DNA of 64,000 nucleotides. It comes from an uncultured Candidatus Saccharibacteria bacterium. GTDB taxonomy: Bacteria; Patescibacteriota; Doudnabacteria; UBA920. The DNA is taken from positions 201,748-265,747 of the forward strand of contig CAZHIA010000003.1 of the NCBI GenBank assembly GCA_964532425.1, written 5' to 3'. The translations under genes and the position numbers were made by a program. Below are positions 3,789 through 45,389 of this stretch, in pieces. Within the stretch, counting starts at the first letter, position 1; the number at the start of each line of letters is the position of its first letter. The notes below the pieces were generated by a model, which did not search any database, was not told the DNA's origin, and worked only from the letters and a program-made list of their open reading frames with translations.

Positions 3789-3906
3789 TGCTTTAAAGAG
3801 TTTATTAACAGCAATAATTATATCATAAAGTAAGTGTTGACAATTCAGCGGTTTTATGCCAATATATCATGTTGTCTGAAAATGAAGAGGAGGAAGTAAA
3901 AACAAT

Positions 3907-4821
3907 ATGCGCCCAGATACAGGCAGTCTCATGTCTACTGCATTCACCTCACCCGCAGGCACCGGCACGGTAACCGTGTGCCACTATCCAATCATCGCAG
4001 CCTTGGTGGCCGCGGAAGGGATCCTCGGCAAAGACCGGGTATGGAACGCCATCAACACCCGCCAGCAACAGTTCTTAGCAGAATCGTTCGCTGCCGGTCG
4101 CGGCCAGATTGGGAAGATTCCGGAAATCGAGTCCATAACATCCTGGGATTACCAAGTAATCAACCAGTTCCTCAGCAGCCGGGGGTTCGACATCCAGCTC
4201 GACGCGTTCGCTCCCAACGAATTCGGCGCCGCCAGCGTACTCAAGCTGGCCATGCAATGGCTGGAAGCCGGAGAAGCAGGCGTACTGATGGGGCCCGGAC
4301 GCCGCACATACGACGCAGTCATCATGAAAGGAGACGGCTTCGCACTGCGCTCCTCGCCGAATCTGGCCCACCCCGTAGTGGTGCTGAAGACGAAGACCTC
4401 AGACCTCGTACTACTGACCAAGGTCGATAAGCCGGTTAGCGAGCTCGAGCTGCCGCAGGTCGCCCGGAATATGTTCACTGCCGGGCCATCGGCGGACTAT
4501 GCCGAAGAAGTCGCATTCCCCATGGTCGACCTGGATATGCAGCCGGACATTTCCTGGCTGCTTCAGATGCACACCGTTGACTCGGCGGGTATGCCCTGGA
4601 AGATCAGCCAGGCGCTACAGCAAACCAAGTTCGCCATGGACGAATTCGGCGCCATAGTCGAAAGCGCTGCCGCACTCGGCATGCGCTGCCTGTGCATTCC
4701 GAACCGGTACGAGATTAACGGCCCGTTCGTAGCCGCGGTCTATCGACCTTCCCTGAAGCTGCCGGTTTTCATCGGCTACCTTGATACGGACTGCTGGAGC
4801 CGGCCCAACCGGACCGTGTAA
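3907..4821 (+). CDS. hypothetical protein (high-GC gene)
   Basis: 304-aa ORF with markedly higher GC than flanks; followed by hairpin terminator; shadow ORFs on both strands. Confidence 0.5.
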   Translation: MRPDTGSLMSTAFTSPAGTGTVTVCHYPIIAALVAAEGILGKDRVWNAINTRQQQFLAESFAAGRGQIGKIPEIESITSWDYQVINQFLSSRGFDIQLDAFAPNEFGAASVLKLAMQWLEAGEAGVLMGPGRRTYDAVIMKGDGFALRSSPNLAHPVVVLKTKTSDLVLLTKVDKPVSELELPQVARNMFTAGPSADYAEEVAFPMVDLDMQPDISWLLQMHTVDSAGMPWKISQALQQTKFAMDEFGAIVESAAALGMRCLCIPNRYEINGPFVAAVYRPSLKLPVFIGYLDTDCWSRPNRTV

Positions 4822-4843
4822 CCATCAGTCGCGCAAACACTCT

Positions 4844-4873
4844 AGCCACCAGTTCACGCTGGTGGCTTTTATT
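4844..4873 (+). terminator. rho-independent terminator
   Basis: AGCCACCAG-TTCACG-CTGGTGGCT followed by TTTTATT. Confidence 0.55.
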
Positions 4874-4913
4874 AATCCCCTCCATGGTGGCCATGAAGGA
4901 ACCAAATTTATGT

Positions 4914-4942
4914 AAAAAGCCCACCAATTTACATTGGTGAGC
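4914..4942 (-). terminator. putative terminator hairpin for 4929..5459 gene
   Basis: CACCAAT/ATTGGTG stem overlapping stop codon, T-run on minus strand. Confidence 0.35.
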
Positions 4943-5459
4943 TGATGGATTGGCGGTACCAAATTTGCTGCCAGTTATAGGTCCGATCCTTTATTTCGTC
5001 GATAATCTGTTGGACCTTCGAAAGCGGTAGCCGCTGGTACGGCCAGGGCAGCGGGCAGAGCCTGGCTGCGAGCTGGATGAATGGTTTCTCGAACGTGTAA
5101 TCGCGTCCCGTTTGGGAATAGCAGTGCCACGCGAGCACCTTATGGATAAGCAACCGTGCCAACAATTGACCTGGAAATGATTCTATTGAGTAGTCATTAT
5201 AAGAAAATAGATTCAGCTGTATCGGTGCCGGTCGAACAAATCGCGCCTCGGCTTCGGCTTGCAACTGTTCTTCATCCCACTCGTCCAGGCTTATGTTCTG
5301 CGGCAAAGGCATGAGCTTAAAAGCCGTTTCGATCATTAACGATCTGCGGGCCCGGCTATTGGAGATTCCTCCACTATCGTAGTACTGCCACAGCCTGCGG
5401 AGAATGAGTCTCGCAAGTTCCTGATCAGATAATTCCTTCAGAGTTCGTTTGCCGTTCAT
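4929..5459 (-). CDS. hypothetical protein
   Basis: 176-aa ORF; no recognisable motif. Confidence 0.5.
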   Translation of the reverse strand: MNGKRTLKELSDQELARLILRRLWQYYDSGGISNSRARRSLMIETAFKLMPLPQNISLDEWDEEQLQAEAEARFVRPAPIQLNLFSYNDYSIESFPGQLLARLLIHKVLAWHCYSQTGRDYTFEKPFIQLAARLCPLPWPYQRLPLSKVQQIIDEIKDRTYNWQQIWYRQSISSPM

Positions 5460-5562
5460 AATCCTCCTTAGAAAAAATATTATACACCGCTGAATGAAAA
5501 TATAAAAGCACCGCCGAATGGGGGTGCTTTTGCTAGGTGAATTTTTGCGAGTTTACCGGTCC

Positions 5563-6423
5563 CTACCACTGTTCCGCGAGGATATCTGTGGCAACCTTGA
5601 TCTTCCGTTCGAGAAATGGGGAAAACTGAGGCGAGTCGGACCACATGAACGATTTCTTCTCCATGTCGCCCGGGAGCTTCGCCATCTCGAATCTTGCCAT
5701 GGCTGCCACATGCTGAGCAAGCGGCGGATTTGCTAAGGCCTCTGGCATGACCGCATACAGCAAATATTCGGCTTCCAACAGGCGAAGCGGAGCGGCAAAC
5801 ACAAAGCCTTCGCGCAGCTCAGGATAGAGGCTGGCAAGGGCAATCGACTCGTTGTCCAACAACCCAACCAGCTCCGCATCATACGTTCCCACTCGACCCA
5901 TCATGTCCGGATGGATTGTATACGTCGCGTACGGAACACCGTTTACTACTGTCTGCGTTTCCACCCACGGACCAAGCTTGTCTTGCAACTTGGCGAGCAA
6001 CTGACAAACCAGGTCCTCTGGCATGTGGTTTACCTGGGCCAGCTGGATGGAGCTGATGGGACCGCAGGCCATGAGACCGCGAAGAACGCGATGGCAAGCC
6101 ATATATGTCATAATCTGTCTGCTAAGTTCAGCCATGGCGAAACCATGGACCGCGTCGTAGAGCATGCGCCGCTTTTCAGGGTCGTTGTTCATTGCCCAGA
6201 CCGGGTAATTAGCAGGCTGGGATGGAGTGGCTTCTCTCTTAACTATGACGCCCTCAGTCTCGAAATAGTCAATAAAGCTTTTGGCTTCCTCGCGCGTTAC
6301 TTTAGCCAAGTACTCGATTTCCTGAAGGCCGAAAACCATCAAGCTACAAATGGCTCTCCGAACGCGATCAATCGGTTCCATCTTCGGAACTTCCGGCAGC
6401 GTTAGAATCACTTTCTTATACAT
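5563..6423 (-). CDS. hypothetical protein
   Basis: start moved to MYKKVIL Met preceded by AGGAGG at 7 nt spacing. Confidence 0.55.
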   Translation of the reverse strand: MYKKVILTLPEVPKMEPIDRVRRAICSLMVFGLQEIEYLAKVTREEAKSFIDYFETEGVIVKREATPSQPANYPVWAMNNDPEKRRMLYDAVHGFAMAELSRQIMTYMACHRVLRGLMACGPISSIQLAQVNHMPEDLVCQLLAKLQDKLGPWVETQTVVNGVPYATYTIHPDMMGRVGTYDAELVGLLDNESIALASLYPELREGFVFAAPLRLLEAEYLLYAVMPEALANPPLAQHVAAMARFEMAKLPGDMEKKSFMWSDSPQFSPFLERKIKVATDILAEQW

Positions 6424-6526
6424 ACTTTCCTCCTGTAAAACATTCAACAATACCACAACAGGCGATTTTGGTCAACTCTTTATTTTTTTAGTAAAATAAT
6501 CTATAATATCAAAGAATCTAACACGT

Positions 6527-6576
6527 TGGGGTGTCGCCAAGTGGTAAGGCATCCCGATTGGATCGGGGCATTCGAA
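6527..6576 (+). tRNA. tRNA-Pro(UGG)-like 5' segment (acceptor 5' strand, D arm, anticodon arm, variable loop, first 3 nt of T stem); interrupted
   Basis: TGGGGTG-TC-GCC-AAGTGGTAA-GGC-A-TCCCG-ATTGGAT-CGGGG-CATTC-GAA then diverges; anticodon TGG at 6559-6561. Confidence 0.45.
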
Positions 6577-6581
6577 AGAGT

Positions 6582-6821
6582 ATGTACTCGGTATATATCT
6601 TAGAGAATCCCCTAGGGAAGCTCTACATTGGGCAGACCGATAATGTTGCGGAAAGATTGGAAAGGCACAATCGGAGCGGTACAAATTATACATCCCACAA
6701 AGGTCCCTGGAGAATAATTTATACAAAAGAGTTTTTGACCCGTTCCGAAGCGCTAGGGTATGAAAAGTATTTAAAAAGTCTTAAAAGTTCCCGGTATATA
6801 AAAACTGAGATCGTTCGTTAA
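6582..6821 (+). CDS. GIY-YIG nuclease, YhbQ/UPF0213-like (79 aa)
   Basis: VYILENPLGKLYIGQTDNVAERLERHN = GIY-YIG core (YIG, Arg, Glu), aligns with E. coli YhbQ; AAGAG SD-like upstream; ORF begins inside the tRNA fragment. Confidence 0.75.
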   Translation: MYSVYILENPLGKLYIGQTDNVAERLERHNRSGTNYTSHKGPWRIIYTKEFLTRSEALGYEKYLKSLKSSRYIKTEIVR

Positions 6822-6930
6822 TTTTTTTCTTCCACCCTATTGGGGTGTCGCCAAGTGGTAAGGCAGCGCCCTTTGGAGGCGCCATTCGAAGGTTCGAATC
6901 CTTCCACCCCAGCCAGGTGGAAGAAAAAAA
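6822..6930. repeat. perfect 15-bp inverted repeats TTTTTTTCTTCCACC / GGTGGAAGAAAAAAA bracketing tRNA-Gln
   Basis: IR-L 6822-6836, IR-R 6916-6930; exact reverse complements. Confidence 0.8.
6841..6915 (+). tRNA. tRNA-Gln(UUG), CCA encoded
   Basis: cloverleaf: acceptor TGGGGTG/CACCCCA (U1-A72), G73, D arm GCC-AAGTGGTAA-GGC, anticodon arm GCGCC-CTTTGGA-GGCGC (TTG 6873-6875), T arm GAAGG-TTCGAAT-CCTTC. Confidence 0.85.
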
Positions 6931-6946
6931 TTAGCCAATGCATCTA

Positions 6947-7011
6947 GTCAGTGGTAAGACATCCCGATTGGATCGGGACATTCGAAGGTTCGAATCCTTC
7001 CACCCCAGCCA
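6947..7011 (+). tRNA. tRNA-Pro(UGG)-like 3' segment (D arm through CCA) lacking a matching 5' acceptor strand
   Basis: GTC-AGTGGTAA-GAC-A-TCCCG-ATTGGAT-CGGGA-CATTC-GAAGG-TTCGAAT-CCTTC-CACCCCA-G-CCA; 7 nt at acceptor position (ATGCATC) cannot pair with CACCCCA. Confidence 0.45.
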
Positions 7012-7013
7012 TG

Positions 7014-7046
7014 AAAAAAGTATCCCCGTAAGGTGATACTTTTTTC
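7014..7046 (+). terminator. rho-independent terminator after tRNA cluster
   Basis: 14-bp stem AAAAAAGTATCCCC/GGTGATACTTTTTT (1 mismatch), GTAA loop, T-run. Confidence 0.55.
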
Positions 7047-7292
7047 ATTATGCGGACAAGATGGTGGTACCTTTCTCGATTTCGCACCGCCAATAATGAT
7101 GCTGATATAATTTCTTGTTTCTAACCTCTCTCTGTCTCTCCCCATTTCATTGGGGAGAGGACATACTAAGAAGCCAATCTATAATTACATATGAACTAGC
7201 GCGAGTGGCCAGCATAAAAGATACCCTGGACATGAGCTTCTATATATGGTATCCTGTGAGGTCTTAAAAAGACTTTCGAACAAGGAGGTAGT

Positions 7293-7667
7293 ATGGAAAC
7301 AGCTCACACAGGTGACAACTTACCGCATTTCCAAATCTGTGGGTGCGGCAAGCATGGAAGAGTAGTATTTCCCGACGGCAGGACCGGAGGGGAATTCGCA
7401 TCACAGGCACAAGGCAGACTTTGGATGGAGTACGCGGCACTGGTCGACGCATTCCAAAACGTGGATATCTTCCCCGAGGGAAAACTACAGCACCTCTTCG
7501 AAGAGATTCAAATCTCCCCGCTCCCCGACCAAATCGAACCCGACGCTTACATTCTCAAGGTAGTCGACACCTGGAATGCGGCCAAACTCCACCAACCCAG
7601 CCTGAACCCGGTTAATTTCCACCATGTCATGGACCGGCTGTGGGATTATAATGCCTTTGAGCAGTAA
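7293..7667 (+). CDS. hypothetical protein
   Basis: SD AAGGAGG then ATG; 124 aa; higher-GC block. Confidence 0.6.
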   Translation: METAHTGDNLPHFQICGCGKHGRVVFPDGRTGGEFASQAQGRLWMEYAALVDAFQNVDIFPEGKLQHLFEEIQISPLPDQIEPDAYILKVVDTWNAAKLHQPSLNPVNFHHVMDRLWDYNAFEQ

Positions 7668-7675
7668 CCAGCCTC

Positions 7676-7708
7676 GGCGGCGCGATCACCTCGCGCCGCC
7701 TTTATTTT
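7676..7708 (+). terminator. rho-independent terminator
   Basis: GGCGGCGCGA-TCACC-TCGCGCCGCC then TTTATTTT. Confidence 0.6.
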
Positions 7709-7711
7709 AAA

Positions 7712-7738
7712 TCTCCTCCATGGGGACCATGGAGGAGA
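7712..7738. repeat. 12-bp perfect palindrome TCTCCTCCATGG-GGA-CCATGGAGGAGA
   Basis: member of CCATGG-cored hairpin family. Confidence 0.6.
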
Positions 7739-7821
7739 CCACCATTGACATACATCACTAAATGTGTTATTTTTATTTGTTCAATTTGCTATTTTCAAAA
7801 ACCTCAGGAGGAAGCAAAAAG

Positions 7822-8265
7822 ATGACTCTGTTTCCCAATCAGATCATGGCTAAGCTGGCCCAGCTTGACCCTACTGCGTGTATCCGATACAGATCAAGCT
7901 TTAAGGAGACTGATCCGCGAGTTTGGTATGTTGACCTGGGTCGCATCGTGGTAAGTTCGGAGCGCGGTGGCTTTAACAGCCATCTCCACGGCACAGACGG
8001 CCCAACTCCCGACATAGCGTTATATAAAACGTGGGAAGCCATACTGGAATTTTTCCGAACGTATCCGGAAGGGTTCTTCCTGCTCTTCAGCTGCCCTCCC
8101 AATGTTCCCATCCCCGGTGATACTCCGCAAGCGTGGGTCCGCTGGGATGAACGCCAGGACGATTGGGTGAATGTCAAGCCGACAGCTCAAAGTCTGCAGG
8201 CACATCACATACCAGCCGATAGGATCGTTTCCTACACGGACCACGCTCTCGCAAGTCGGCGATAA
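7822..8265 (+). CDS. hypothetical protein
   Basis: start set at MTLFPNQ Met preceded by GGAGGAAG; 147 aa. Confidence 0.5.
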   Translation: MTLFPNQIMAKLAQLDPTACIRYRSSFKETDPRVWYVDLGRIVVSSERGGFNSHLHGTDGPTPDIALYKTWEAILEFFRTYPEGFFLLFSCPPNVPIPGDTPQAWVRWDERQDDWVNVKPTAQSLQAHHIPADRIVSYTDHALASRR

Positions 8266-8284
8266 CAGATAAAGGAGATATACA

Positions 8285-8803
8285 ATGAGCGCGCATGTTG
8301 TGACACCTATTGTCGACCCGACGAATCCGGTCGACTACTCCAAGACCGTAACGCCGCCCAACTACAAGTGCGGCAAGTGTGGCGCTACGAACTGCAAACT
8401 CTGGCGCGAATACAACACGTTTCTCGAGCACCAGCAACTGCTCTGCGTGAAATGTGCCGGAGAAGAAGAGCGAAAGAAGGTTTGCGACATTGATGCGAAC
8501 GGAAAAATCCAGTTCGAACGGCTCTGGCGCACGGACCAGATCGGCTGGATGATCCCCGCTGTACCGACCGAAGAGAATGATACCTTCTGGGGATATTCGT
8601 CGGTTCCCGCTGCCGGCTGTGAGTGGTGGTACCGGCTGCCCTCCATCTCCGAACAAACCAGAAACGAGCTCAGAAAGCTCGCTGTGACAGTCATCGATCA
8701 TGCGAAGAGTCGAGCGCGCCGCGGCCGCAAGCCGTCCATGGCGTATTGGGGAGAACGAAACCCCAACAAAGCGCTCGCGCTCGCTCGTAAGTTCGCGGCA
8801 TAA
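8285..8803 (+). CDS. hypothetical protein with CxxC...CxxC zinc-ribbon
   Basis: SD AAAGGAGA; CGKCGATNC and CVKCAG cysteine pairs. Confidence 0.55.
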   Translation: MSAHVVTPIVDPTNPVDYSKTVTPPNYKCGKCGATNCKLWREYNTFLEHQQLLCVKCAGEEERKKVCDIDANGKIQFERLWRTDQIGWMIPAVPTEENDTFWGYSSVPAAGCEWWYRLPSISEQTRNELRKLAVTVIDHAKSRARRGRKPSMAYWGERNPNKALALARKFAA

Positions 8804-8818
8804 GCCGCGCAAATTCAA

Positions 8819-8858
8819 ACGCCTGTCCAGGACCAAATCTTGGACAGGCGTATTTTAT
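8819..8858 (+). terminator. rho-independent terminator
   Basis: ACGCCTGTCCA...TGGACAGGCGT followed by ATTTTATT. Confidence 0.55.
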
Positions 8859-8860
8859 TA

Positions 8861-8889
8861 AACCCCTTGATGGTTACCATCAAGGGGTT
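8861..8889. repeat. 13-bp perfect palindrome AACCCCTTGATGG-TTA-CCATCAAGGGGTT
   Basis: between convergent genes; CCATCA/TGATGG core, 3-nt loop. Confidence 0.6.
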
Positions 8890-8898
8890 GTTGATGTA

Positions 8899-9237
8899 TC
8901 AGTCGCGACTTTTGCTGCGGGCAACTTCCACTTCGAGCTCGGTCATAAACTCTTCCTTGGTACAGAGGCCAAGCGACTCGAACTCGCCAAGAAAGTGCCA
9001 CCAGCCCGCGACTTTGTGCTGCCAGAATAGCTGCATGGCGCGTTTTTTGTCGGCTTCGGTCCGGACTGCCGGATAGACATCGCGCCTGCCTACGTCCAGG
9101 CCGTGATCCGCAAGAAATCGATACTGCTGGCCCAATTGGGAAAGATCGCCGTCGCCGACAATGAAGTCGTACTCGGCATCATACCTGCCAGCATGGGACA
9201 GGGAATCTAAAGTTCCCGGAGCAAATGAAAATTGCAT
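8899..9237 (-). CDS. hypothetical protein
   Basis: start at MQFSFAPG Met with AAGGAGG SD; 112 aa. Confidence 0.5.
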   Translation of the reverse strand: MQFSFAPGTLDSLSHAGRYDAEYDFIVGDGDLSQLGQQYRFLADHGLDVGRRDVYPAVRTEADKKRAMQLFWQHKVAGWWHFLGEFESLGLCTKEEFMTELEVEVARSKSRD

Positions 9238-9302
9238 GACGACCTCCTTTTTAGAACTCAATAGAGTACACCCGACCGGCCAAAAAGTCAATCGCCGACA
9301 TA

Positions 9303-9346: not shown

Positions 9347-10585
9347 CTAATCCTTATATGGGTCGAATTCGTTCTCGCCCGCCATGGCGACAATGAGCGG
9401 ACGAAGCGTGTGGAGGATTTCGATTGTATCCCCCTGCGCTTTCAATACATCCGGCAGCCGGCGATAAGCGTGCGGACTTTCGTCCAAGCCTCCACCTCGC
9501 AATATGACACCCTTTTCGGCCAGCCAAGCCTGCATCATCTCCGGACTGACCTTGCCCGGTTTGATGATTTCACCGGAGCGGAACTTGCGCTTACCCGCGG
9601 CTTCGGTCCGGCTCATGACCCTGCCGGCACCGTGCACCGTGGAGAACAACGCCTGTTCCTGGTCGAAAAGAACTTCCGGTTCGGTAGACACCGTACCCTG
9701 GACAATGACGGCATCGTCCCCCATTGAGCCGCCAATAAAACCTTTCTGTCCGGGATACGCCGGAGTAGCGCCCTTACGGACTACAATAAGATCGCGGCCG
9801 CCATGCGCCTCTTCCCAGGCGAAGTTGTGATGGTTATGAACCAGCTCAACTTCTTTGGCCCCGAGAATTGAAACAACTTTTCTCGCAACCCACTCGCGGC
9901 CGGTGTACGCGTACTCCCCGGCCAACTGCATCAGGTGCCAGTAGTCGTGGCCAAGTGGGTCGCTGAGCGACAACAGAATCTCGACCTCTTGCGCACCGCG
10001 GGCCTCCCACGGCTTGTTCTGCGAGAGGTTCAAAAACCCCGTTGCCACGCCATGACCAAAGCCACGGGAACCGAAGTGCACACCAACCCAGAGCACGCCG
10101 TTTTCATCTGCGAGCACATCCACGTAGTGGTTGCCCGAGCCGACGGTGCCCAGCTGGTTACGGGCGCGGTCTTTGAGACTGTCGCGCTGGCTCCGGTCGC
10201 CAACGAGCGACCACGCATCACTCTCAAAGAGCGGATGGTCAACCGGCGCATCGCCCGCGTTGTTAGCGCGGCCAACACCGAAGCTGATGGTCGCAGCGAT
10301 CTGGTCCGCGATCTCCGCAAGCCGCTTGTTAATGGCTGGCTGATCACTGCCGAGACTCGAAAGTGAAAGGTCAGTCCTTATGGCTGCGTTGCCGCAGGCG
10401 ATATCGAAACCGACACCCACGACACTGACTTTGTTGTCATACGCTGCCACGCCACCAATGGGCATGACATAACCCTTGTGGCCATCGGCCATAAGGGCTG
10501 CAAATTCCGCCCGGCTGGCCACATCAGCAAGCTGGGCAAATGTGCCTTCATCGTGAGTACCGAAAACTCCCAAGATTCTTCCCAT
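9347..10585 (-). CDS. rtcB: RNA ligase RtcB (short ~410-aa form)
   Basis: DGHKGYVMPIGGV, GFDIACG and C-terminal HNHAG-like His motifs of RtcB family. Confidence 0.8.
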   Translation of the reverse strand: MGRILGVFGTHDEGTFAQLADVASRAEFAALMADGHKGYVMPIGGVAAYDNKVSVVGVGFDIACGNAAIRTDLSLSSLGSDQPAINKRLAEIADQIAATISFGVGRANNAGDAPVDHPLFESDAWSLVGDRSQRDSLKDRARNQLGTVGSGNHYVDVLADENGVLWVGVHFGSRGFGHGVATGFLNLSQNKPWEARGAQEVEILLSLSDPLGHDYWHLMQLAGEYAYTGREWVARKVVSILGAKEVELVHNHHNFAWEEAHGGRDLIVVRKGATPAYPGQKGFIGGSMGDDAVIVQGTVSTEPEVLFDQEQALFSTVHGAGRVMSRTEAAGKRKFRSGEIIKPGKVSPEMMQAWLAEKGVILRGGGLDESPHAYRRLPDVLKAQGDTIEILHTLRPLIVAMAGENEFDPYKD

Positions 10586-26147: not shown

Positions 26148-27722
26148 CTAGCTATCACCCATCTCTTTCCACTCATTCCGCTCCCGCAGGCGTCCAAAAC
26201 CTATAGAGTCTCGAATGACATTCCGGGCGGCAATCACCGGCGCGCGGCACACGGTAAAATCGCCATATTTTTTATCAAGCTTGTCTAAGGCCTCATCAAC
26301 GCGCCGGGTGCGCTCGGCGTCGCCGAACAGGCTCAGTTGGTTCACCGCTTCGGACAGGCCGGAAACGGTCACACCTATTAATTTAATACCGCTGATCGGT
26401 CGCTGACGGGAACGCTGATCGGTCGCTGATTTTACAGCCACGTAACCCTCCATATTGATACGGTCAAATATTTTCATACATTCCAAAAAGATTTCCCGAC
26501 CGTCCTGAGTGTTGTAGCCAAGTTTTTTTGACTGGCCATAACACTCATGATCCTTGTCGTGCAGGTGGAAATGTAGCACATTGCCCCATAACCCTTGCAG
26601 CCGCAGGCGACGGCTCACCATTTCGCACAACCGGTAGAGCACGGGCACGAAATACTTCCGTTCCCGGTATTCTTCCGGAAGCGTGTACATATGGCCCATA
26701 GACTTGATGTCTTGTTCGTCCGCCACATCTTCTTTCCAACTGCCTTCCAGCTGTCCCATACTATGCAAATGGTGGCCTAAAATGCCAAACTTGCTGACCA
26801 GCCAGCTTTTAGGGTATTTCCGCAGATCCGCCAGTGTCTTGATTCCCATTTCATTCAGGCGCCGTTCCTGCCGCACGCCAATACCGGGGATATCAATCAA
26901 TTTCAAACGATGGTATAAGTCTTCTTTGGTAAGCACAATAGCCCTGACACCCGCACTCTTCACTCCGCACTCTGCACTTTTCACTACCACCAATCCATCG
27001 GGCTTTTGCAGGTCTGAAGCAATCTTGGCAATGAGTTTATTGGGACCAATACCGACGGAACAGGTCAGGTAGTCACCCACCTCGCGCTTCATCCGCCGCT
27101 TGATGGTTTGGGCAATCTTCACCGCCTCCTCGAACGGGTCGGCTGCTCGGTAATCTTGTTGGTGTTTCATCCAATAATACTCCACTTCGGGATCTTGCCC
27201 GCCCAAAGGCCTCAAGGCCAATGTGGGGGGTCCGCCTGAATGTCTGTCAGGGCTTTCGGCGGAAAAATTGGAAATTGGAAATTTGACCCTGTCATTCGTC
27301 AGGGCCATCCCGTCGCATGACGGGATGGCACCTGACATTTGATAGCTATTCGGCTTCTGGAATGTGGTGATCGGAATTCTGATATTACTTGCCTTCGTAA
27401 TATCCAAAAACACCTCGTCAATGCTGTACACCTCCACTTTGTCCGTATAATCACCCACCACTCTGTGAAGGCGCGAAGCATACAGCCGGTAGCGCTCCGG
27501 ATGCGTCTTGGTCAGGATAATTTTAGGATAGAGCTTTCTTGCCTCCCACACAGCCGTGCCGGTCTTGATGCCCCAACGCTTAGCTTCAATGCTAGCCGCA
27601 ATGATAATACCGCCCAGGTGCTCGCACACGCCGACCGGCTTGCCGCGATACTCAGGATTATCCTGCTGCTCCACCGAAGCGAAGTAGCTGTTCATGTCGA
27701 GATGGAGAATAATGGGAGGCAT
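26148..27722 (-). CDS. dinB: DNA polymerase IV (Y-family, DinB) with extra in-frame segments
   Basis: ILHLDMNSYFASVEQ, SIDEVFLD, IGPNKLIAKIASD core motifs; ~75-aa and ~12-aa insertions relative to E. coli DinB coincide with repeat DNA. Confidence 0.75.
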   Translation of the reverse strand: MPPIILHLDMNSYFASVEQQDNPEYRGKPVGVCEHLGGIIIAASIEAKRWGIKTGTAVWEARKLYPKIILTKTHPERYRLYASRLHRVVGDYTDKVEVYSIDEVFLDITKASNIRIPITTFQKPNSYQMSGAIPSCDGMALTNDRVKFPISNFSAESPDRHSGGPPTLALRPLGGQDPEVEYYWMKHQQDYRAADPFEEAVKIAQTIKRRMKREVGDYLTCSVGIGPNKLIAKIASDLQKPDGLVVVKSAECGVKSAGVRAIVLTKEDLYHRLKLIDIPGIGVRQERRLNEMGIKTLADLRKYPKSWLVSKFGILGHHLHSMGQLEGSWKEDVADEQDIKSMGHMYTLPEEYRERKYFVPVLYRLCEMVSRRLRLQGLWGNVLHFHLHDKDHECYGQSKKLGYNTQDGREIFLECMKIFDRINMEGYVAVKSATDQRSRQRPISGIKLIGVTVSGLSEAVNQLSLFGDAERTRRVDEALDKLDKKYGDFTVCRAPVIAARNVIRDSIGFGRLRERNEWKEMGDS

Positions 27723-42763: not shown

Positions 42764-43208
42764 AATCCTAATTCCCCGAATTAATATCCAAATTCCCCGA
42801 ATAACTGCTATTAAGTACGCGCTTTGGAGACAATCGATACGCTCGAAAATTAACAAGCAATCCTAATTCTAATTTAGATGCTGTTAAATATCTTTGCATC
42901 TGCAAATAATCTTCTTTAGTAATATATGGTTTTGCTTTGAGATCAATAACTATTTTATTCTCAGCCAAGAAATCAACCCTGTTTCCCTTAGGTGATCCTT
43001 CTATGAATAGTTTAATTTCGTACTCCCGTCGATACTCAATTTGTTCTTCTATCAACATTTTTTCGAATTCATCACAATACTGTCTTTCCGACGCAAAACG
43101 TCCCAGCTTTTTATGGACCTTAAACACAATCCAACAATTTTATATGATAATTCTGGCTCCACTATTTGAGGCATTTGGATTGCAGTATTCGGGGAATTAG
43201 GATTATGT
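42761..43208. mobile_element. 448-bp TIR-bounded cassette encoding a GxxExxY protein
   Basis: TIR CATAATCCTAATTCCCCGAAT at 42761-42781, reverse complement at 43188-43208 (21 bp perfect; ~26 bp with internal duplication on left). Confidence 0.7.
42768..43127 (-). CDS. GxxExxY-family protein (PD-(D/E)xK nuclease-like)
   Basis: VDFLAENKIVIDLKAK ... ELGLLVNFR; C-terminal 12 aa encoded by the TIR. Confidence 0.6.
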   Translation of the reverse strand: MFKVHKKLGRFASERQYCDEFEKMLIEEQIEYRREYEIKLFIEGSPKGNRVDFLAENKIVIDLKAKPYITKEDYLQMQRYLTASKLELGLLVNFRAYRLSPKRVLNSSYSGNLDINSGN

Positions 43209-45389
43209 TTCCTTTCCTTGTAAAAACCCTATTATCTGCTCCCGGTGCCTGCGATAAATAATGGATACGCCGACCAAAATAAACCCGAGGGCTATGAACG
43301 ATACAACTCTAAAGCTCAAGTCCAATACGAGGAGATCGTACAAAAAGACCTTCAGAATAGTCACGGCGAACAAGACGACGGCCAGTTTTTTAAGCAATGA
43401 GTTGTTGCGGAAGACTCCCCAGAACATCATCACCGCCGAATACACGATCCACCACAGGCTCAAGATGAGGTTGCGGGCATTTTTTGAATCAAAACCCCGG
43501 TAATGCTCCACAATCTCCCATGAGACAGCTAGCCACAACAACAAACTCGCTCCTACATTGAACACATCACTCAGCTGATTCTGACCCTCGCCGCGGCGGT
43601 AGATATACGCGGCAAACAGCAAGGCCGCAGCCTCAAGTACCATTAATTCGAATTTGGTATTCATCAAGAAAACCGGGTTAGCGTCATATGGCAGCACGAG
43701 AACGCGTACCAGGCTAAACACCAGTAAGATCGCGGCCGTAGCCATAAGCAGCTTTCGTTTGGCCAATGCGGCAATCAGGAGCAACAGCGCCGGATACAAC
43801 ACCCACCATAACGCCATCCACTGGCTGCGAGCCAAGTCAGTCGTCCCGACCAGGGCCGCGGCAATATCCCAGCTGACTCCCGCCCACAGGACCAGGATTG
43901 CAACAATCTCCATAGCATCCCGCGCCTTGTCTCCGGTTTGCGGGTCCGGATACCGGCTATAGAGCCAGCCAGCATACAAAAGCGCCAAGGTATCGGCAAA
44001 CATCAGACCGAATTTGGCATTGAACAGGAAAACGAGATCTTGTGACGTATACGGCTCCACGACGGATTTGAACAGCGCCAAGAACAGAATCACCACACTC
44101 CACATGCGGAGCTCTTCGCGCTTCAATAATGCGCCGATCGTAATACCAAACAACCCCAAAGCCAACCAAGCGAGAGCCAAGGCCTTCCCCTGCCATTCCC
44201 AACCGGCGGCACAGACCAGCATGACAGCTCCCACAATCGATAATCCGTAGTTCAGCATACGGTATTCCAGCCGGTCAACTAAGGCATAAGCAAACAGGAA
44301 CAGCACACCGCCGAGCAACGCCACCGGTGCAAGCAGCGAATGATAGTTCTCATTAAGAAGCAGCGCGATGGATATAAAATAGAACAAGCCGGACAGAGTC
44401 GCTACAATTGAAGCATCTTTTTCGAAATTTTTCGGAAGCACCCCCTGTGCGTGATGATACCTGGTCAAAAAACCGAGACCGAGCACGAATAGCACAGACG
44501 TGAAAATGATAAAGAACAGGCTCGGATAGGTATTGCCCGCATTCGAGTAAGCGGAACCCCAGACGGCAAAATCGAGCGTTGCCCCAACCAGGGCTAGCAG
44601 CATCAATTCCAGCCAATATTTTCTCGCCAGAACGACCAACACAGCAATGTTAAGCAGCGTAAGATAAATGAGCAGCGGCCCCTGCTGGTCATGACCGGTA
44701 GACAAAACGAGCGGTGACCCATAAGCCCCAAAAAATGCCAATGCCCCCAAAGCCAGAGAAGAATGCCGATATGCCAGCCAGACGGATAGCGCGGCAACAC
44801 CGAGCATAAGCACGAACGCCAGCGGCTGGGGCAGCAATCCATAAAAATGGAAGCCGGCATACAAAGTGAAATACAACAAGGCAATACCGCCTCCTGTAAT
44901 GGCTAGCGCGTAATTACCATACCGTTCCTTCCACAATTCTCCAAGATAGATCAGCAATCCGCCAACGGCCAATCCGAGCGCAATACGGACCCACTCATTG
45001 ATCCAGCCCATGTCAACGGCGATCTTATAAAAAAACGCAACGCCTAAAACCAGAGCAGCGACCCCGATCTTGTTGAGCCAAGAAATCGCGCGGTCCGTAT
45101 TCATCTCGCTGTGCCGTTCCTCAGGCCTGGCAGAGACAGGGGCTTGGAAGGTCCGTGCTTCCGGCTCGCGGTGCGACGGAAAAGGCGTATGATGAATTTC
45201 CGGCTGCTGCAGCGCGGCATTGTATTCGGCTTCGGTCGGCGGACGTGGCGCAGGGCGCGGCGGAGCGGACGCAAGTCCCTGGCTCCGCAGACGCGCTTCC
45301 AATTCATGTACGCGATTGTTGATACTGGCAATCCAAAAGATCAGAATAAGAACGACAACGAACAGTACGAATTCAATGAATCCGGACAT
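43203..45389 (-). CDS. DUF2339-like polytopic membrane protein
   Basis: 728 aa, >20 predicted TM helices in repeated blocks; stop codon overlaps right TIR. Confidence 0.55.
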   Translation of the reverse strand: MSGFIEFVLFVVVLILIFWIASINNRVHELEARLRSQGLASAPPRPAPRPPTEAEYNAALQQPEIHHTPFPSHREPEARTFQAPVSARPEERHSEMNTDRAISWLNKIGVAALVLGVAFFYKIAVDMGWINEWVRIALGLAVGGLLIYLGELWKERYGNYALAITGGGIALLYFTLYAGFHFYGLLPQPLAFVLMLGVAALSVWLAYRHSSLALGALAFFGAYGSPLVLSTGHDQQGPLLIYLTLLNIAVLVVLARKYWLELMLLALVGATLDFAVWGSAYSNAGNTYPSLFFIIFTSVLFVLGLGFLTRYHHAQGVLPKNFEKDASIVATLSGLFYFISIALLLNENYHSLLAPVALLGGVLFLFAYALVDRLEYRMLNYGLSIVGAVMLVCAAGWEWQGKALALAWLALGLFGITIGALLKREELRMWSVVILFLALFKSVVEPYTSQDLVFLFNAKFGLMFADTLALLYAGWLYSRYPDPQTGDKARDAMEIVAILVLWAGVSWDIAAALVGTTDLARSQWMALWWVLYPALLLLIAALAKRKLLMATAAILLVFSLVRVLVLPYDANPVFLMNTKFELMVLEAAALLFAAYIYRRGEGQNQLSDVFNVGASLLLWLAVSWEIVEHYRGFDSKNARNLILSLWWIVYSAVMMFWGVFRNNSLLKKLAVVLFAVTILKVFLYDLLVLDLSFRVVSFIALGFILVGVSIIYRRHREQIIGFLQGKET

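What the first reader, a model, noticed from the sequence alone, without database searches (positions are those of the whole stretch)
6527..7046. tRNA-Pro(UGG)-like gene split by a ~370-nt insertion carrying a GIY-YIG nuclease gene and an intact tRNA-Gln
The window shows, in order: a 5' tRNA segment (6527-6576: acceptor 5' strand, D arm, UGG anticodon arm, variable loop, GAA); a 79-codon GIY-YIG/YhbQ-like ORF (6582-6821) that starts inside that segment; a complete tRNA-Gln(UUG) (6841-6915) bracketed by perfect 15-bp inverted repeats; and a 3' tRNA segment (6947-7011: D arm to CCA) followed by a terminator. The two partial copies share a 37-bp direct repeat (AGTGGTAAG[G/A]CATCCCGATTGGATCGGG[G/A]CATTCGAA) with two mismatches. 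Joining 6527-6576 to 6987-7011 reconstitutes a perfect 75-nt cloverleaf. This looks like an intron-like or mobile insertion within the T-stem (not the canonical anticodon-loop group I position), or an integrase-type att duplication, with a homing-type nuclease and a passenger tRNA. A split tRNA whose insert carries another functional tRNA plus a GIY-YIG gene is not a described arrangement as far as I know.
Basis: partly seen in the sequence, partly recalled or inferred. Interest (0 to 1): 0.85.

Follow-up and report, generated by a model that had tools for sequence, protein, structure and literature searches.

The report
Nuclease-and-hairpin cassette embedded in tRNA-Gln gene
What looked like a split proline tRNA is a broken copy of a glutamine tRNA gene wrapped around a tiny nuclease gene and a spare intact tRNA, and the same cassette, marked by one conserved hairpin, sits in tRNA genes of more than ten bacterial phyla without, as far as I could find, having been described.

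Summary
The sequence features are real: a 5' tRNA piece, a 79-codon GIY-YIG gene, an intact tRNA-Gln(UUG) between 15-bp inverted repeats, a 3' tRNA piece, a 37-bp direct repeat and a terminator. The interpretation as a split tRNA-Pro(UGG) does not hold.

- **The 'Pro anticodon arm' is a family hairpin.** It reads TCCCGR-loop-YCGGGA. In relatives the loop is 2-10 nt beyond the 6-bp stem and is not an anticodon. The tRNA body is a copy of the neighbouring tRNA-Gln.
- **The layout recurs widely.** In 163 related loci (83 from species genomes, 80 from metagenomes), about 75% have a co-oriented tRNA within about 150 nt, covering 16 isoacceptor types. Most of those also carry partial copies of that same tRNA with a segment replaced by the hairpin.
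- **Arrays are common.** A third of the genome loci hold tandem arrays of the unit, some 100% identical.
- **The protein is an intact nuclease.** It is a domain-only Slx1/UPF0213-type GIY-YIG protein whose catalytic residues are 99-100% conserved.

Best reading: a selfish, recombination-driving nuclease cassette living in a duplicated tRNA gene, with the intact tRNA as the host's working copy. The role of the hairpin and the mobility mechanism are inferred, not shown. The closest known analogue is phage SegB. I found no paper describing this family.

The parts
6469..6507 (+). Promoter-like region upstream of the 5' tRNA piece (TGGTCA-17-TAAAAT; also TATAAT at 6502-6507). Presumably the original tRNA promoter, now driving the whole unit.
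   Evidence: 9/12 match; sequence. The 28-nt repeat D3 (6498-6525 / 7176-7203) also carries TATAAT. Function is inferred.
6527..6576 (+). 5' piece of a disrupted tRNA-Gln copy: positions 1-26, then the family hairpin in place of the anticodon arm, then the variable loop and the first 3 nt of the T stem. It serves as the 5' leader of the nuclease gene.
   Evidence: 1-25 identical to the intact tRNA-Gln. The same layout is seen in L011, L012, L002 and L004.
6552..6568 (.). Family hairpin copy 1: TCCCGAT-TGG-ATCGGGG, 30 nt before the ATG.
   Evidence: In loci with the tRNA downstream of the ORF, the hairpin lies 30-47 nt upstream of the start.
6582..6821 (+). 79-aa domain-only GIY-YIG nuclease gene of the Slx1/UPF0213 branch.
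   Evidence: Pfam PF01541, E=1.7e-16. Profile against PDB: 1zg2 at 7.6e-15, SLX1 at 1e-7. AF2 pLDDT 87.5 and Foldseek hits to 1zg2/Slx1. Y5, Y15, R25, H29 and E61 are 99-100% conserved in 135 relatives.
6822..6836 (+). Left arm of the inverted repeat bracketing the intact tRNA-Gln (TTTTTTTCTTCCACC). It contains a remnant of a tRNA 3' end (CTTCCACC).
   Evidence: z=-8.2. Comparable leader/trailer pairing occurs in L012 (z=-4.7), L004 and L071.
6841..6915 (+). Intact tRNA-Gln(UUG). This is the working copy carried between the two broken pieces.
   Evidence: ARAGORN; Rfam, 64 bits. All close relatives have an intact tRNA-Gln 16-27 nt after the ORF.
6916..6930 (+). Right arm of the inverted repeat (GGTGGAAGAAAAAAA).
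6945..7011 (+). 3' piece of the disrupted tRNA-Gln copy: positions 8-26 with D stem GTC/GAC, the family hairpin in place of the anticodon arm, then positions 44-76 including CCA. It lacks the 5' acceptor strand.
   Evidence: Rfam tRNA, 30 bits, model positions 8-63. Positions 43-75 are identical to the intact tRNA. ARAGORN does not call it.
6962..6978 (.). Family hairpin copy 2: TCCCGAT-TGG-ATCGGGA.
   Evidence: These are the only two TCCCGA-stem hairpins in the 64-kb window.
7011..7048 (+). Terminator-type hairpin with flanking A/T runs, ending the unit.
   Evidence: Inverted repeat I2, 17-nt arms, 94% complementary. It is folded as a closed hairpin. The rule-based scan did not call it.

Best explanation
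The locus is one copy of a widespread cassette that lives inside tRNA genes. The cassette has three components:
- a gene for an approximately 80-aa, domain-only GIY-YIG nuclease of the Slx1/UPF0213 (structure-specific) branch;
- a signature hairpin, TCCCGR-loop-YCGGGA;
- a local duplication of the host tRNA gene.

**Anatomy in the window (shown).** A tRNA-Gln(UUG) gene with its own promoter and terminator is represented by two broken, overlapping pieces. In both, the anticodon arm has been replaced by the hairpin. Between them lie the nuclease gene and one intact tRNA-Gln, which supplies the cell. 'UGG' is simply this copy's hairpin loop.

**Other steps shown.** The family-wide association with tRNA genes. 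Hairpin stem sequence conserved while the loop varies. Strict conservation of the nuclease catalytic residues. Tandem arrays of the unit. Pieces that derive from other tRNA-Gln alleles.

**How it probably works (inferred).**
- The unit is transcribed from the tRNA promoter.
- The nuclease recognises stem-loop DNA and makes breaks or nicks. Candidate substrates are the hairpin and/or the arms of transcribed tDNA.
- Repair by homologous recombination between the short tRNA repeats homogenises the copies and amplifies the unit in tandem.
- When a plain homologous tRNA gene is available, the cassette can be copied in, with the tRNA pieces acting as homology arms.
- The cassette-borne intact tRNA makes the insertion harmless.

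Not shown: cleavage, its substrate, and transfer between genomes.
For: **tRNA association**
- Genome set: 65 of 83 non-redundant loci have a co-oriented adjacent tRNA. 52 have a downstream and 31 an upstream partial copy of that same tRNA.
- Independent metagenome set: 60 of 80 loci have a tRNA within 150 nt, and 58 of 80 have the hairpin.
- The two sets together cover 16 isoacceptor types.
- Several loci without a tRNA end at a contig edge.

**Hairpin**
- Hairpins with a TCCCGA stem occur 74 times in 43 loci within 400 nt of the ORF (80 kb in total). They occur 11 times in the remaining 283 kb.
- The stem sequence is kept while loops vary from 2 to 10 nt. This argues for recognition of a folded stem rather than a fixed-spacing duplex site.

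**Window-type relatives**
- L011, L012, L002 and L004 (56-66% protein identity, unrelated neighbouring genes) show the layout 5' piece + hairpin, ORF, intact tRNA-Gln. All but L011, where only a remnant remains, also have a 3' piece + hairpin.

**History of recombination or movement**
- The L071 5' piece equals the L047-type tRNA-Gln, not its own intact tRNA.
- L002 carries a fossil 3' piece ending in the window-type CCTTCCACCCCAGCCA, next to its own-type piece.
- In L012 the outer pieces are CUG-type around a UUG tRNA.
- In L045 and L031 the second 5' piece and the intact tRNA share a cassette-type upstream flank, while the first piece has a different flank.

**Amplification and decay**
- 28 of 83 loci have two or more ORF copies.
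- Arrays: 3.5 x 342 bp at 100% identity, 6.4 x 381 bp at 97%, and 3.3 x 379 bp at 97%.
- 4 of 83 ORFs have internal stops, and truncated copies also occur.

**Nuclease**
- Y5, Y15, G17, R25, H29, E61 and K65 are 99-100% conserved in 135 unique proteins.
- The fold is closest to UPF0213 and Slx1.

**Precedent**
- Phage SegB, a GIY-YIG nuclease, cleaves inside tRNA genes. It drives recombination-dependent tandem amplification of tRNA plus segB (PMC13096335).
Against: - **No empty site.** No empty/filled pair of orthologous sites was found. The upstream neighbour is an ORFan and the exact flank is absent from metagenome contigs. Mobility between genomes is therefore not demonstrated.
- **Conflict with classical homing logic.** The intact tRNA inside the cassette should remain a target if the nuclease cuts tRNA genes. 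If instead it cuts the hairpin, breaks fall in the carrier allele, which does not by itself give spread.
- **Conservation could mean a host function.** Near-perfect conservation of catalytic residues, and protein clades that track tRNA type and partly track taxonomy, also fit a long-lived vertically inherited function.
- **No DNA-binding domain.** The protein has none, and Slx1-like bacterial proteins have been regarded as repair factors of vertical descent (PMC1564403).
- **Concerted evolution.** Gene conversion could explain the identity between pieces and the local tRNA without recent insertion.
Confidence: 0.6

Rival explanations
1. A functional RNA-protein system rather than a selfish element. 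The hairpin-bearing tRNA-like pieces would be made as RNA and act with the nuclease as cofactor, regulator, decoy or antitoxin (type III toxin-antitoxin-like), or as a tRNA-related defence or repair module.
For: - The hairpin stem sequence is conserved across phyla while the loop is free.
- Catalytic residues are 99-100% conserved.
- The D stem of the window's 3' piece shows a double, pairing-preserving change: GCC/GGC to GTC/GAC.
- Some loci have 2-4 tandem hairpin-bearing units in front of the ORF, as in type III antitoxin repeats: L039, L031, L045 and L148.
- The hairpin sits at a fixed distance from the ORF ends.
- One bacterial Slx1-like protein is fused to a TrmH-like tRNA methyltransferase (PMC1564403).
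Against: - There is no constant RNA architecture. The hairpin replaces the D-loop, anticodon arm, variable region or T-loop depending on the clade.
- The pieces lack one acceptor strand and are sometimes heterologous or unable to pair.
- The partial copies always match the local tRNA, whatever its type. That is the signature of a DNA-level duplication.
- No PADLOC or NCBIfam family is matched above noise.
- GIY-YIG enzymes characterised so far are DNA nucleases (my knowledge).
Confidence: 0.17
2. A domesticated tDNA-maintenance nuclease. By analogy with Slx1 at rDNA, the protein would process stalled forks or R-loop structures at a highly transcribed tRNA gene. The partial copies and arrays would be by-products of that recombination, without any spread between genomes.
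For: - Slx1-like fold.
- Slx1 maintains rDNA copy number by cleaving branched DNA (PMC1564403).
- Arrays and partial copies are confined to the tRNA locus.
- Protein clades track tRNA type and partly track taxonomy.
Against: - Only one tRNA gene per genome region is affected, and the tRNA type differs between lineages.
- Pieces derived from foreign tRNA-Gln alleles and pseudogenised copies point to turnover and transfer.
- Distribution across phyla is patchy. The 223 relatives were recovered with a single peptide pattern among 185,579 species genomes, so that count is a lower bound.
Confidence: 0.12
3. A tRNA-Pro(UGG) gene is split by an intron-like insert, and the 75-nt tRNA is reconstituted at the RNA level by removal of 6577-6986.
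For: - The joined sequence is called tRNA-Pro(tgg) by ARAGORN.
- The minimum-energy fold of the whole transcript pairs the 5' piece with the 3' piece (z=-6.9). This is expected from the repeats alone.
- An RtcB ligase gene lies 2.3 kb away.
Against: - Relatives have non-anticodon loops in the same hairpin.
- The hairpin occupies other tRNA positions in other clades.
- The body has Gln features, not Pro: U1-A72 and G73, with A at position 32.
- The halves in L004 cannot form an acceptor stem.
- Rfam finds no group I or II intron.
- RtcB is absent from all other loci.
Confidence: 0.03
4. An integrase-type att duplication. An integrative element inserted into the tRNA gene by site-specific recombination and left partial tRNA copies as attL and attR.
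For: - tRNA genes are classical integration targets, and direct repeats of tRNA sequence flank the insert.
- The structure 5' piece-hairpin ... hairpin-3' piece is formally what recombination at a palindromic core would give (inference).
Against: - The insert is only about 370 bp, with one ORF that is a nuclease, not a recombinase.
- Flanking ORFs have no integrase domain.
- Neither flanking copy is a restored tRNA, unlike attL of integrative elements.
- The repeat boundaries differ widely between loci.
Confidence: 0.04

Closest known systems
SegB and other Seg-type free-standing GIY-YIG homing endonucleases in the tRNA gene clusters of T4-like phages (PMC2330249; PMC13096335)
   Same: - A GIY-YIG nuclease gene sits among or next to tRNA genes, with a wide range of isotypes.
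- The enzyme cleaves within tRNA genes.
- It promotes recombination-dependent tandem amplification of a segment holding a full tRNA plus (partly truncated) nuclease gene copies.
- This matches the arrays and partial copies seen here.
   Different: - SegB belongs to the I-TevI/Seg branch, which has a C-terminal DNA-binding region, and is encoded by phages.
- The protein here is an approximately 80-aa catalytic domain only, of the Slx1/UPF0213 branch (TIGR01453 scores 19 bits against a cut-off of 56).
- It is chromosomal in bacteria and nearly absent from viral collections.
- It always comes with a conserved hairpin and is embedded in a duplicated copy of one tRNA gene.
Slx1 (eukaryotic structure-specific nuclease) and bacterial UPF0213/YhbQ stand-alone GIY-YIG proteins
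   Same: - Best sequence-profile and fold matches (1zg2, 1ywl, Slx1).
- Minimal domain with no conserved C-terminal Asn (feature as described in PMC1564403).
- Slx1 cuts branched and stem-loop DNA and maintains a repeated RNA-gene array (rDNA).
   Different: - None of the papers I found describes any link of the bacterial proteins to tRNA genes, to a cognate hairpin or to tandem cassettes.
- There is no Slx4-like partner or RING domain here.
Group I introns with homing endonuclease genes in bacterial tRNA anticodon loops
   Same: A tRNA gene is interrupted at the anticodon region by an element that can carry a GIY-YIG gene. The host cost is neutralised.
   Different: There is no ribozyme (no Rfam intron hit). 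The cost is neutralised by carrying a second, intact tRNA gene instead of by splicing. The interrupted copy is not restorable in several relatives.
Integrative elements and genomic islands that target tRNA genes
   Same: tRNA gene as address. Partial tRNA duplications flank the insert. tRNA function is preserved.
   Different: No integrase. The insert is about 0.4 kb. Repeat boundaries are variable. The anticodon arm is replaced by a hairpin.
Hairpin-dependent elements (IS200/IS605, REP/RAYT) and mobile mini-palindromes (Rickettsia palindromic elements, mitochondrial GC clusters)
   Same: A short conserved stem-loop travels with, or is handled by, a small nuclease. Here the hairpin also appears in the D-loop and T-loop positions of dead tRNA copies, much as mini-palindromes colonise RNA-gene loops.
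   Different: The nuclease class differs (GIY-YIG, not HUH). The hairpin is confined to the cassette locus: only two copies occur in the 64-kb window. There are no terminal inverted repeats of a transposon. The resemblance is recalled from my knowledge, not tested.

Membership tests
GIY-YIG nuclease superfamily | Match to the GIY-YIG catalytic domain profile | tested here: met
   PF01541, E=1.7e-16, 60.7 bits against a cut-off of 22.6, residues 1-70.
GIY-YIG nuclease superfamily | Catalytic residues (two Tyr, Arg, His, Glu) present and conserved | tested here: met
   Y5 100%, Y15 99%, R25 99%, H29 100% and E61 99% in 135 unique family proteins.
GIY-YIG nuclease superfamily | Nuclease activity | not testable with these tools
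   Needs purified protein and DNA/RNA substrates.
Slx1 / UPF0213 (YhbQ) branch | Closest sequence and fold relatives are UPF0213/Slx1. Minimal domain without the C-terminal Asn of the UvrC/I-TevI lineage (criterion from PMC1564403). | tested here: met
   Profile against PDB: 1zg2 at 7.6e-15, 1ywl at 9.6e-11, SLX1 at 1e-7. Foldseek ranks 1zg2 and Slx1 (TMq 0.58-0.69) ahead of UvrC (0.52). No conserved Asn after E61.
I-TevI / Seg-type homing endonucleases | GIY-YIG domain joined to a DNA-binding region; match to the group I intron endonuclease model | tested here: not met
   79 aa in total, all of it catalytic domain. TIGR01453 scores 19.2 bits against a cut-off of 56.
I-TevI / Seg-type homing endonucleases | Site-specific cleavage of the element-free allele and copying into it | not testable with these tools
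   No empty allele was found. Needs experiment.
tRNA-Pro(UGG) (split gene) | Cloverleaf with a 7-nt anticodon loop reading UGG | tested here: inconclusive
   Met only after manual joining in this window. Neither piece is called in situ.
tRNA-Pro(UGG) (split gene) | Anticodon and loop conserved in orthologous or related copies | tested here: not met
   The same hairpin has loops AGCA, CTGT, CCG, TCCGA and others in the closest relatives. Loop length is 2-10 nt beyond the 6-bp stem.
tRNA-Pro(UGG) (split gene) | Bacterial proline identity elements in the acceptor end (A73, G72; from my knowledge) | tested here: not met
   The sequence has G73 and A72 (U1-A72), identical to the neighbouring tRNA-Gln.
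Group I / group II intron | Ribozyme core detectable by covariance models | tested here: not met
   Rfam scan of 6200-7300 at E<=10 finds only tRNA and chance-level hits.
Integrase-mediated tRNA-targeting island | Tyrosine or serine recombinase gene in the insert; one flank restores a complete tRNA | tested here: not met
   The single ORF in the insert is GIY-YIG. Both flanking copies are incomplete.
Type III toxin-antitoxin | Tandem RNA repeats directly upstream of an endoribonuclease toxin gene | tested here: inconclusive
   The window has a single upstream hairpin unit. Arrays of 2-4 units occur in a minority of relatives. The protein fold is not that of known type III toxins.

The most novel reading that the evidence does not exclude
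A previously unrecognised class of minimal selfish DNA. It would consist of an approximately 80-aa Slx1-like structure-specific nuclease plus its cognate 16-22-nt hairpin. It would invade tRNA genes of many types across bacterial phyla, neutralise the damage by carrying a spare intact tRNA, and spread and amplify through cleavage of folded stem-loop or cruciform DNA followed by recombination on tRNA-length homology arms. That mobility mechanism would differ from those of homing endonucleases, integrases and transposases.
Probability: 0.3. Interest if true: 0.85.

Novelty: new variant of a known kind. Interest (0 to 1): 0.68.

Why it matters
- **A new handle on an uncharacterised protein family.** The work would give a function and a defined nucleic-acid partner (the TCCCGR/YCGGGA stem-loop) to bacterial stand-alone Slx1/UPF0213 proteins, for which I found no experimental characterisation.
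- **Very small cassettes at tRNA genes.** It would show that tRNA genes in many phyla host nuclease cassettes that reshape them by partial copies, tandem arrays and swapped alleles. This has consequences for tRNA gene annotation: pieces can be mis-joined or miscalled as here, and assemblies break at these loci.
- **Extension of a recent phage result.** It would extend to bacterial chromosomes the finding that a GIY-YIG nuclease amplifies tRNA loci.
- **Possible tool.** The short protein with a short specific hairpin may be useful as a reagent.
- **Testable.** Culturable carriers exist, for example Flavobacterium sp. P21.

Tried and rejected
- **Rfam scan.** A scan for introns or known RNAs around the locus found only tRNA hits.
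- **Phage origin.** DNA and protein searches of phage records and IMG/VR gave only tRNA-Gln similarity and a few distant GIY-YIG genes. A phage tRNA cluster is rejected, and the window carries chromosomal housekeeping genes.
- **RtcB link.** The RtcB gene at 9347-10585 looked suggestive for tRNA splicing, but it is absent from every related locus. Rejected as coincidence.
- **Empty-site comparison.** The upstream neighbour has no homologue other than itself. The exact promoter/tRNA junction is absent from metagenome contigs. No result.
- **Defence-system and NCBIfam libraries.** Only sub-threshold hits.
- **Literature.** Nine full-text searches found no description of the family. The library lacks most subscription journals, so this is not proof of absence.
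- **Hairpin as a genome-wide repeat.** Rejected: the only two TCCCGA-stem hairpins in the 64-kb window are at this locus.
- **Hairpin as an intrinsic terminator.** Rejected: no T-run follows it.
- **Inverted repeats around tRNA-Gln as transposon ends.** Not supported. Their sequences differ between loci and partly derive from tRNA 3'-end remnants.
- **Organism of the window.** Could not be determined. The closest cassettes are in Patescibacteria and Saccharibacteria genome bins.
Full report
**1. Observation.**
- The 5' tRNA piece is 6527-6576.
- The 79-codon ORF is 6582-6821, with a clear GIY-YIG domain (Pfam E=1.7e-16).
- An intact tRNA-Gln(UUG) lies at 6841-6915 (ARAGORN; Rfam 64 bits).
- It is bracketed by perfect 15-bp inverted repeats at 6822-6836 and 6916-6930. 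The leader/trailer duplex scores z=-8.2.
- The 3' tRNA piece is 6945-7011 (Rfam tRNA 30 bits, model positions 8-63).
- A 37-bp direct repeat with two mismatches lies at 6540-6576 and 6950-6986.
- A terminator-type hairpin lies at 7011-7048.
- Joining 6527-6576 to 6987-7011 gives a sequence that ARAGORN calls tRNA-Pro(tgg).

One correction: the ATG of the ORF lies just after the 5' piece, not inside it. The window is a bacterial chromosome carrying PBP2, DnaX, RecJ, iPGM, RtcB and a type IV coupling protein. It holds only this one tRNA gene.

**2. The 'tRNA-Pro' body is a copy of the neighbouring tRNA-Gln.**
Positions 1-25 of the 5' piece and 43-75 of the 3' piece are identical to the intact tRNA-Gln. 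Only the anticodon arm differs. It reads TCCCGAT-TGG-ATCGGG(G/A), which folds equally well as a 7-bp stem with a 3-nt loop.

**3. Relatives.**
The protein has few close homologues in the indexed search. Each of the four whose contigs I fetched (P0002, P0004, P0005 and the more distant P0006) lies next to a tRNA.

Three of them, at 56-65% identity and in unrelated gene neighbourhoods, share the window's layout. A 5' tRNA-Gln-like piece has its anticodon arm replaced by a CCCGA...TCGGG hairpin. The ORF follows, then an intact tRNA-Gln 16-27 nt after the stop. A 3' piece with the same hairpin follows in all but L011, where only a remnant remains. The hairpin loops are AGCA, CTGT, CCG and TCCGA, none of them an anticodon.

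A pattern-plus-tblastn scan of one genome per species found 223 relatives. Among the 83 non-redundant loci I analysed, mostly from the 80 best of these:
- 65 have a co-oriented adjacent tRNA;
- 52 have a downstream partial copy of that same tRNA;
- 31 have an upstream partial copy.

An independent set of 80 metagenome loci gave 60 with a tRNA within 150 nt and 58 with the hairpin. The two sets together cover sixteen isoacceptor types. Hosts include Patescibacteria, Bacteroidota, Ignavibacteria, Verrucomicrobia, Planctomycetes, Acidobacteria, Chloroflexi and others.

Two layouts occur: tRNA, ORF, hairpin + 3' piece; or 5' piece + hairpin, ORF, tRNA. The window and many other loci carry broken pieces on both sides. 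The family is almost absent from viral collections.

**4. The hairpin.**
I counted all perfect 6-bp hairpins de novo. The TCCCGA stem occurs 74 times in 43 loci within 400 nt of the ORF (80 kb). It occurs 11 times in the remaining 283 kb, and most of those belong to extended arrays. Variants are TCCCGC, TCCGCC, TCCCGG and CCCCGA.

The stem sequence is kept across phyla while the loop varies from 2 to 10 nt. I take this as evidence that a trans-acting factor reads the folded stem, since a duplex site would need constant spacing. The co-inherited nuclease is the obvious candidate, but this is inference.

The hairpin replaces different parts of the dead tRNA copy in different clades:
- the whole anticodon arm (His, Pro, Ser, Trp, Gln, Ala);
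- either half of it (Asn);
- the variable region and T-stem strand (Phe);
- the D-loop;
- the T-loop.

In the 64-kb window its only two copies are at this locus.

**5. The protein.**
It is a bare catalytic domain.
- A profile search of solved structures gives UPF0213 proteins (1zg2 at 7.6e-15, 1ywl) and Slx1 (1e-7).
- An AlphaFold model (pLDDT 87.5) matches the same proteins ahead of UvrC.
- The group I intron endonuclease model is far below its cut-off.
- No defence-system model matches meaningfully.
- Across 135 unique family members, Y5, Y15, G17, R25, H29, E61 and K65 are 99-100% conserved. The nuclease activity is therefore under selection.
- A few copies are pseudogenes or truncated.

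**6. Signs of recombination and movement.**
- The 5' piece in L071 is identical to the tRNA-Gln of L047, not to its own intact tRNA.
- L002 has two successive 3' pieces. One ends in the window-type CCTTCCACCCCAGCCA and the other in its own CUG-type end.
- L012 has CUG-type outer pieces around a UUG tRNA.
- In L004 the acceptor strands of the 5' and 3' pieces cannot pair.
- In L045 and L031 the second 5' piece and the intact tRNA share a cassette-type upstream flank, while the first piece has a different flank.
- Twenty-eight of 83 loci carry two to seven ORF copies in tandem. Arrays are 97-100% identical.
- A neighbour-joining tree of the proteins groups them largely by tRNA type, with several phyla inside the Asn and Ala clades. 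The tree rests on about 80 residues and is weak.

**7. Interpretation.**
The split tRNA-Pro reading fails. The remaining question is what the cassette does.

I favour a selfish nuclease cassette resident in a duplicated tRNA gene. It would be expressed from the tRNA promoter. The intact tRNA keeps the host whole, and the broken pieces are both products of and substrates for recombination. The nearest precedent is phage SegB, a GIY-YIG enzyme that cuts inside tRNA genes. SegB drives recombination-dependent tandem amplification of tRNA plus its own gene (PMC13096335; PMC2330249).

The differences from SegB are substantial: another branch of the superfamily, no DNA-binding domain, a chromosomal location, an obligatory hairpin, and embedding within one tRNA gene.

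Weak points:
- I found no empty site.
- The intact tRNA should remain a target under a simple homing model.
- Cutting at the hairpin would not by itself give spread.
- The high conservation also fits a host function.

Rivals are a tRNA-like RNA plus protein system, a domesticated tDNA-maintenance nuclease, the split-tRNA idea and an integrase-type duplication. Their confidences are given in the rival section.

One speculative point may be worth testing. Resolution of an extruded hairpin (cruciform) by a structure-specific nuclease leaves a full palindrome on both broken ends. That would naturally produce hairpin copies on both sides of whatever is inserted.

**8. Novelty.**
Nine full-text searches found no paper on this family or on any tRNA link of bacterial Slx1/UPF0213 proteins. 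The 2006 survey of the superfamily treats them as stand-alone repair proteins of vertical descent (PMC1564403). The library omits most subscription journals, so prior description cannot be excluded.

I rate it a new variant of a known kind: a nuclease cassette at tRNA genes. There is a fair chance that the mechanism is new.

Noticed in passing
window 9347-10585 (-): An RtcB RNA ligase gene (Pfam E=1.4e-61) lies 2.3 kb from the tRNA locus. It is suggestive for tRNA repair or splicing, but no related locus contains an RtcB gene, so the proximity looks coincidental.
   Followed up: yes
window 3900-9300: The genes flanking the cassette (for example 5563-6456, 7293-7667, 7762-8265) have no Pfam hits. 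The 297-aa upstream neighbour has no homologue except itself among 5.8 billion proteins. The cassette may sit in a strain-specific island.
   Followed up: partly
window 6498-6525 and 7176-7203: A 28-nt direct repeat (71% identical), with TATAAT in both copies, lies upstream of the 5' tRNA piece and again about 130 nt after the terminator. The second copy belongs to a 10/12 promoter match (7158-7185). These may be related promoters.
   Followed up: no
window 6822-6836 / 6916-6930; also L012, L004, L071, L047: The intact tRNA-Gln is bracketed by leader/trailer inverted repeats in several relatives, with different sequences (z from -8.2 to -1.5). In the window the left arm contains a remnant of a tRNA 3' end (CTTCCACC). 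They could form a processing stem or be a scar of earlier duplications. Unexplained.
   Followed up: partly
L074 2091-3303; L086 1287-3714; L033 2053-3285: Tandem arrays of the whole unit (tRNA 3' part + terminator + nuclease gene + hairpin): 3.5 copies at 100% identity, 6.4 copies at 97% and 3.3 copies at 97%. This implies recent or ongoing amplification.
   Followed up: partly
L039 2401-2476: The acceptor stem of this tRNA-Asn is TCCCGAG/CTCGGGA, the same sequence as the family hairpin stem. tRNA-Asn genes generally begin TCC and end GGA. The hairpin might derive from a tRNA-Asn acceptor minihelix, or this may be coincidence.
   Followed up: no
L002 2911-3000 and 3352-3608; L004 2876-3000 and 3359-3475: The broken tRNA pieces in these relatives carry extra inserted hairpins in the D-loop and a 40-60-nt insertion in the T-loop that itself contains family hairpins. 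The hairpin behaves like a small palindrome that colonises the loops of dead tRNA copies.
   Followed up: partly
L023, L038, L021, L085: In many loci with the tRNA upstream, the nuclease gene starts directly after the tRNA's intrinsic terminator, and a second copy of that terminator follows the 3' piece. Expression would then depend on read-through, as for many phage homing endonuclease genes.
   Followed up: no
window 59927-62464 (-), 26148-27722 (-), 43203-45389 (-): A type IV secretion coupling protein (TraG/VirD4-like), a Y-family DNA polymerase and a large DUF2339 membrane protein are encoded elsewhere in the window. There is no evident link to the cassette.
   Followed up: no
L001 (Logan SRR11567520 contig, 6951 bp): The only public contig with the identical protein ends inside the tRNA-Gln, right after the nuclease gene. 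Many related contigs also end at these loci. The repeated tRNA pieces break short-read assemblies, so the family is probably under-counted.
   Followed up: partly
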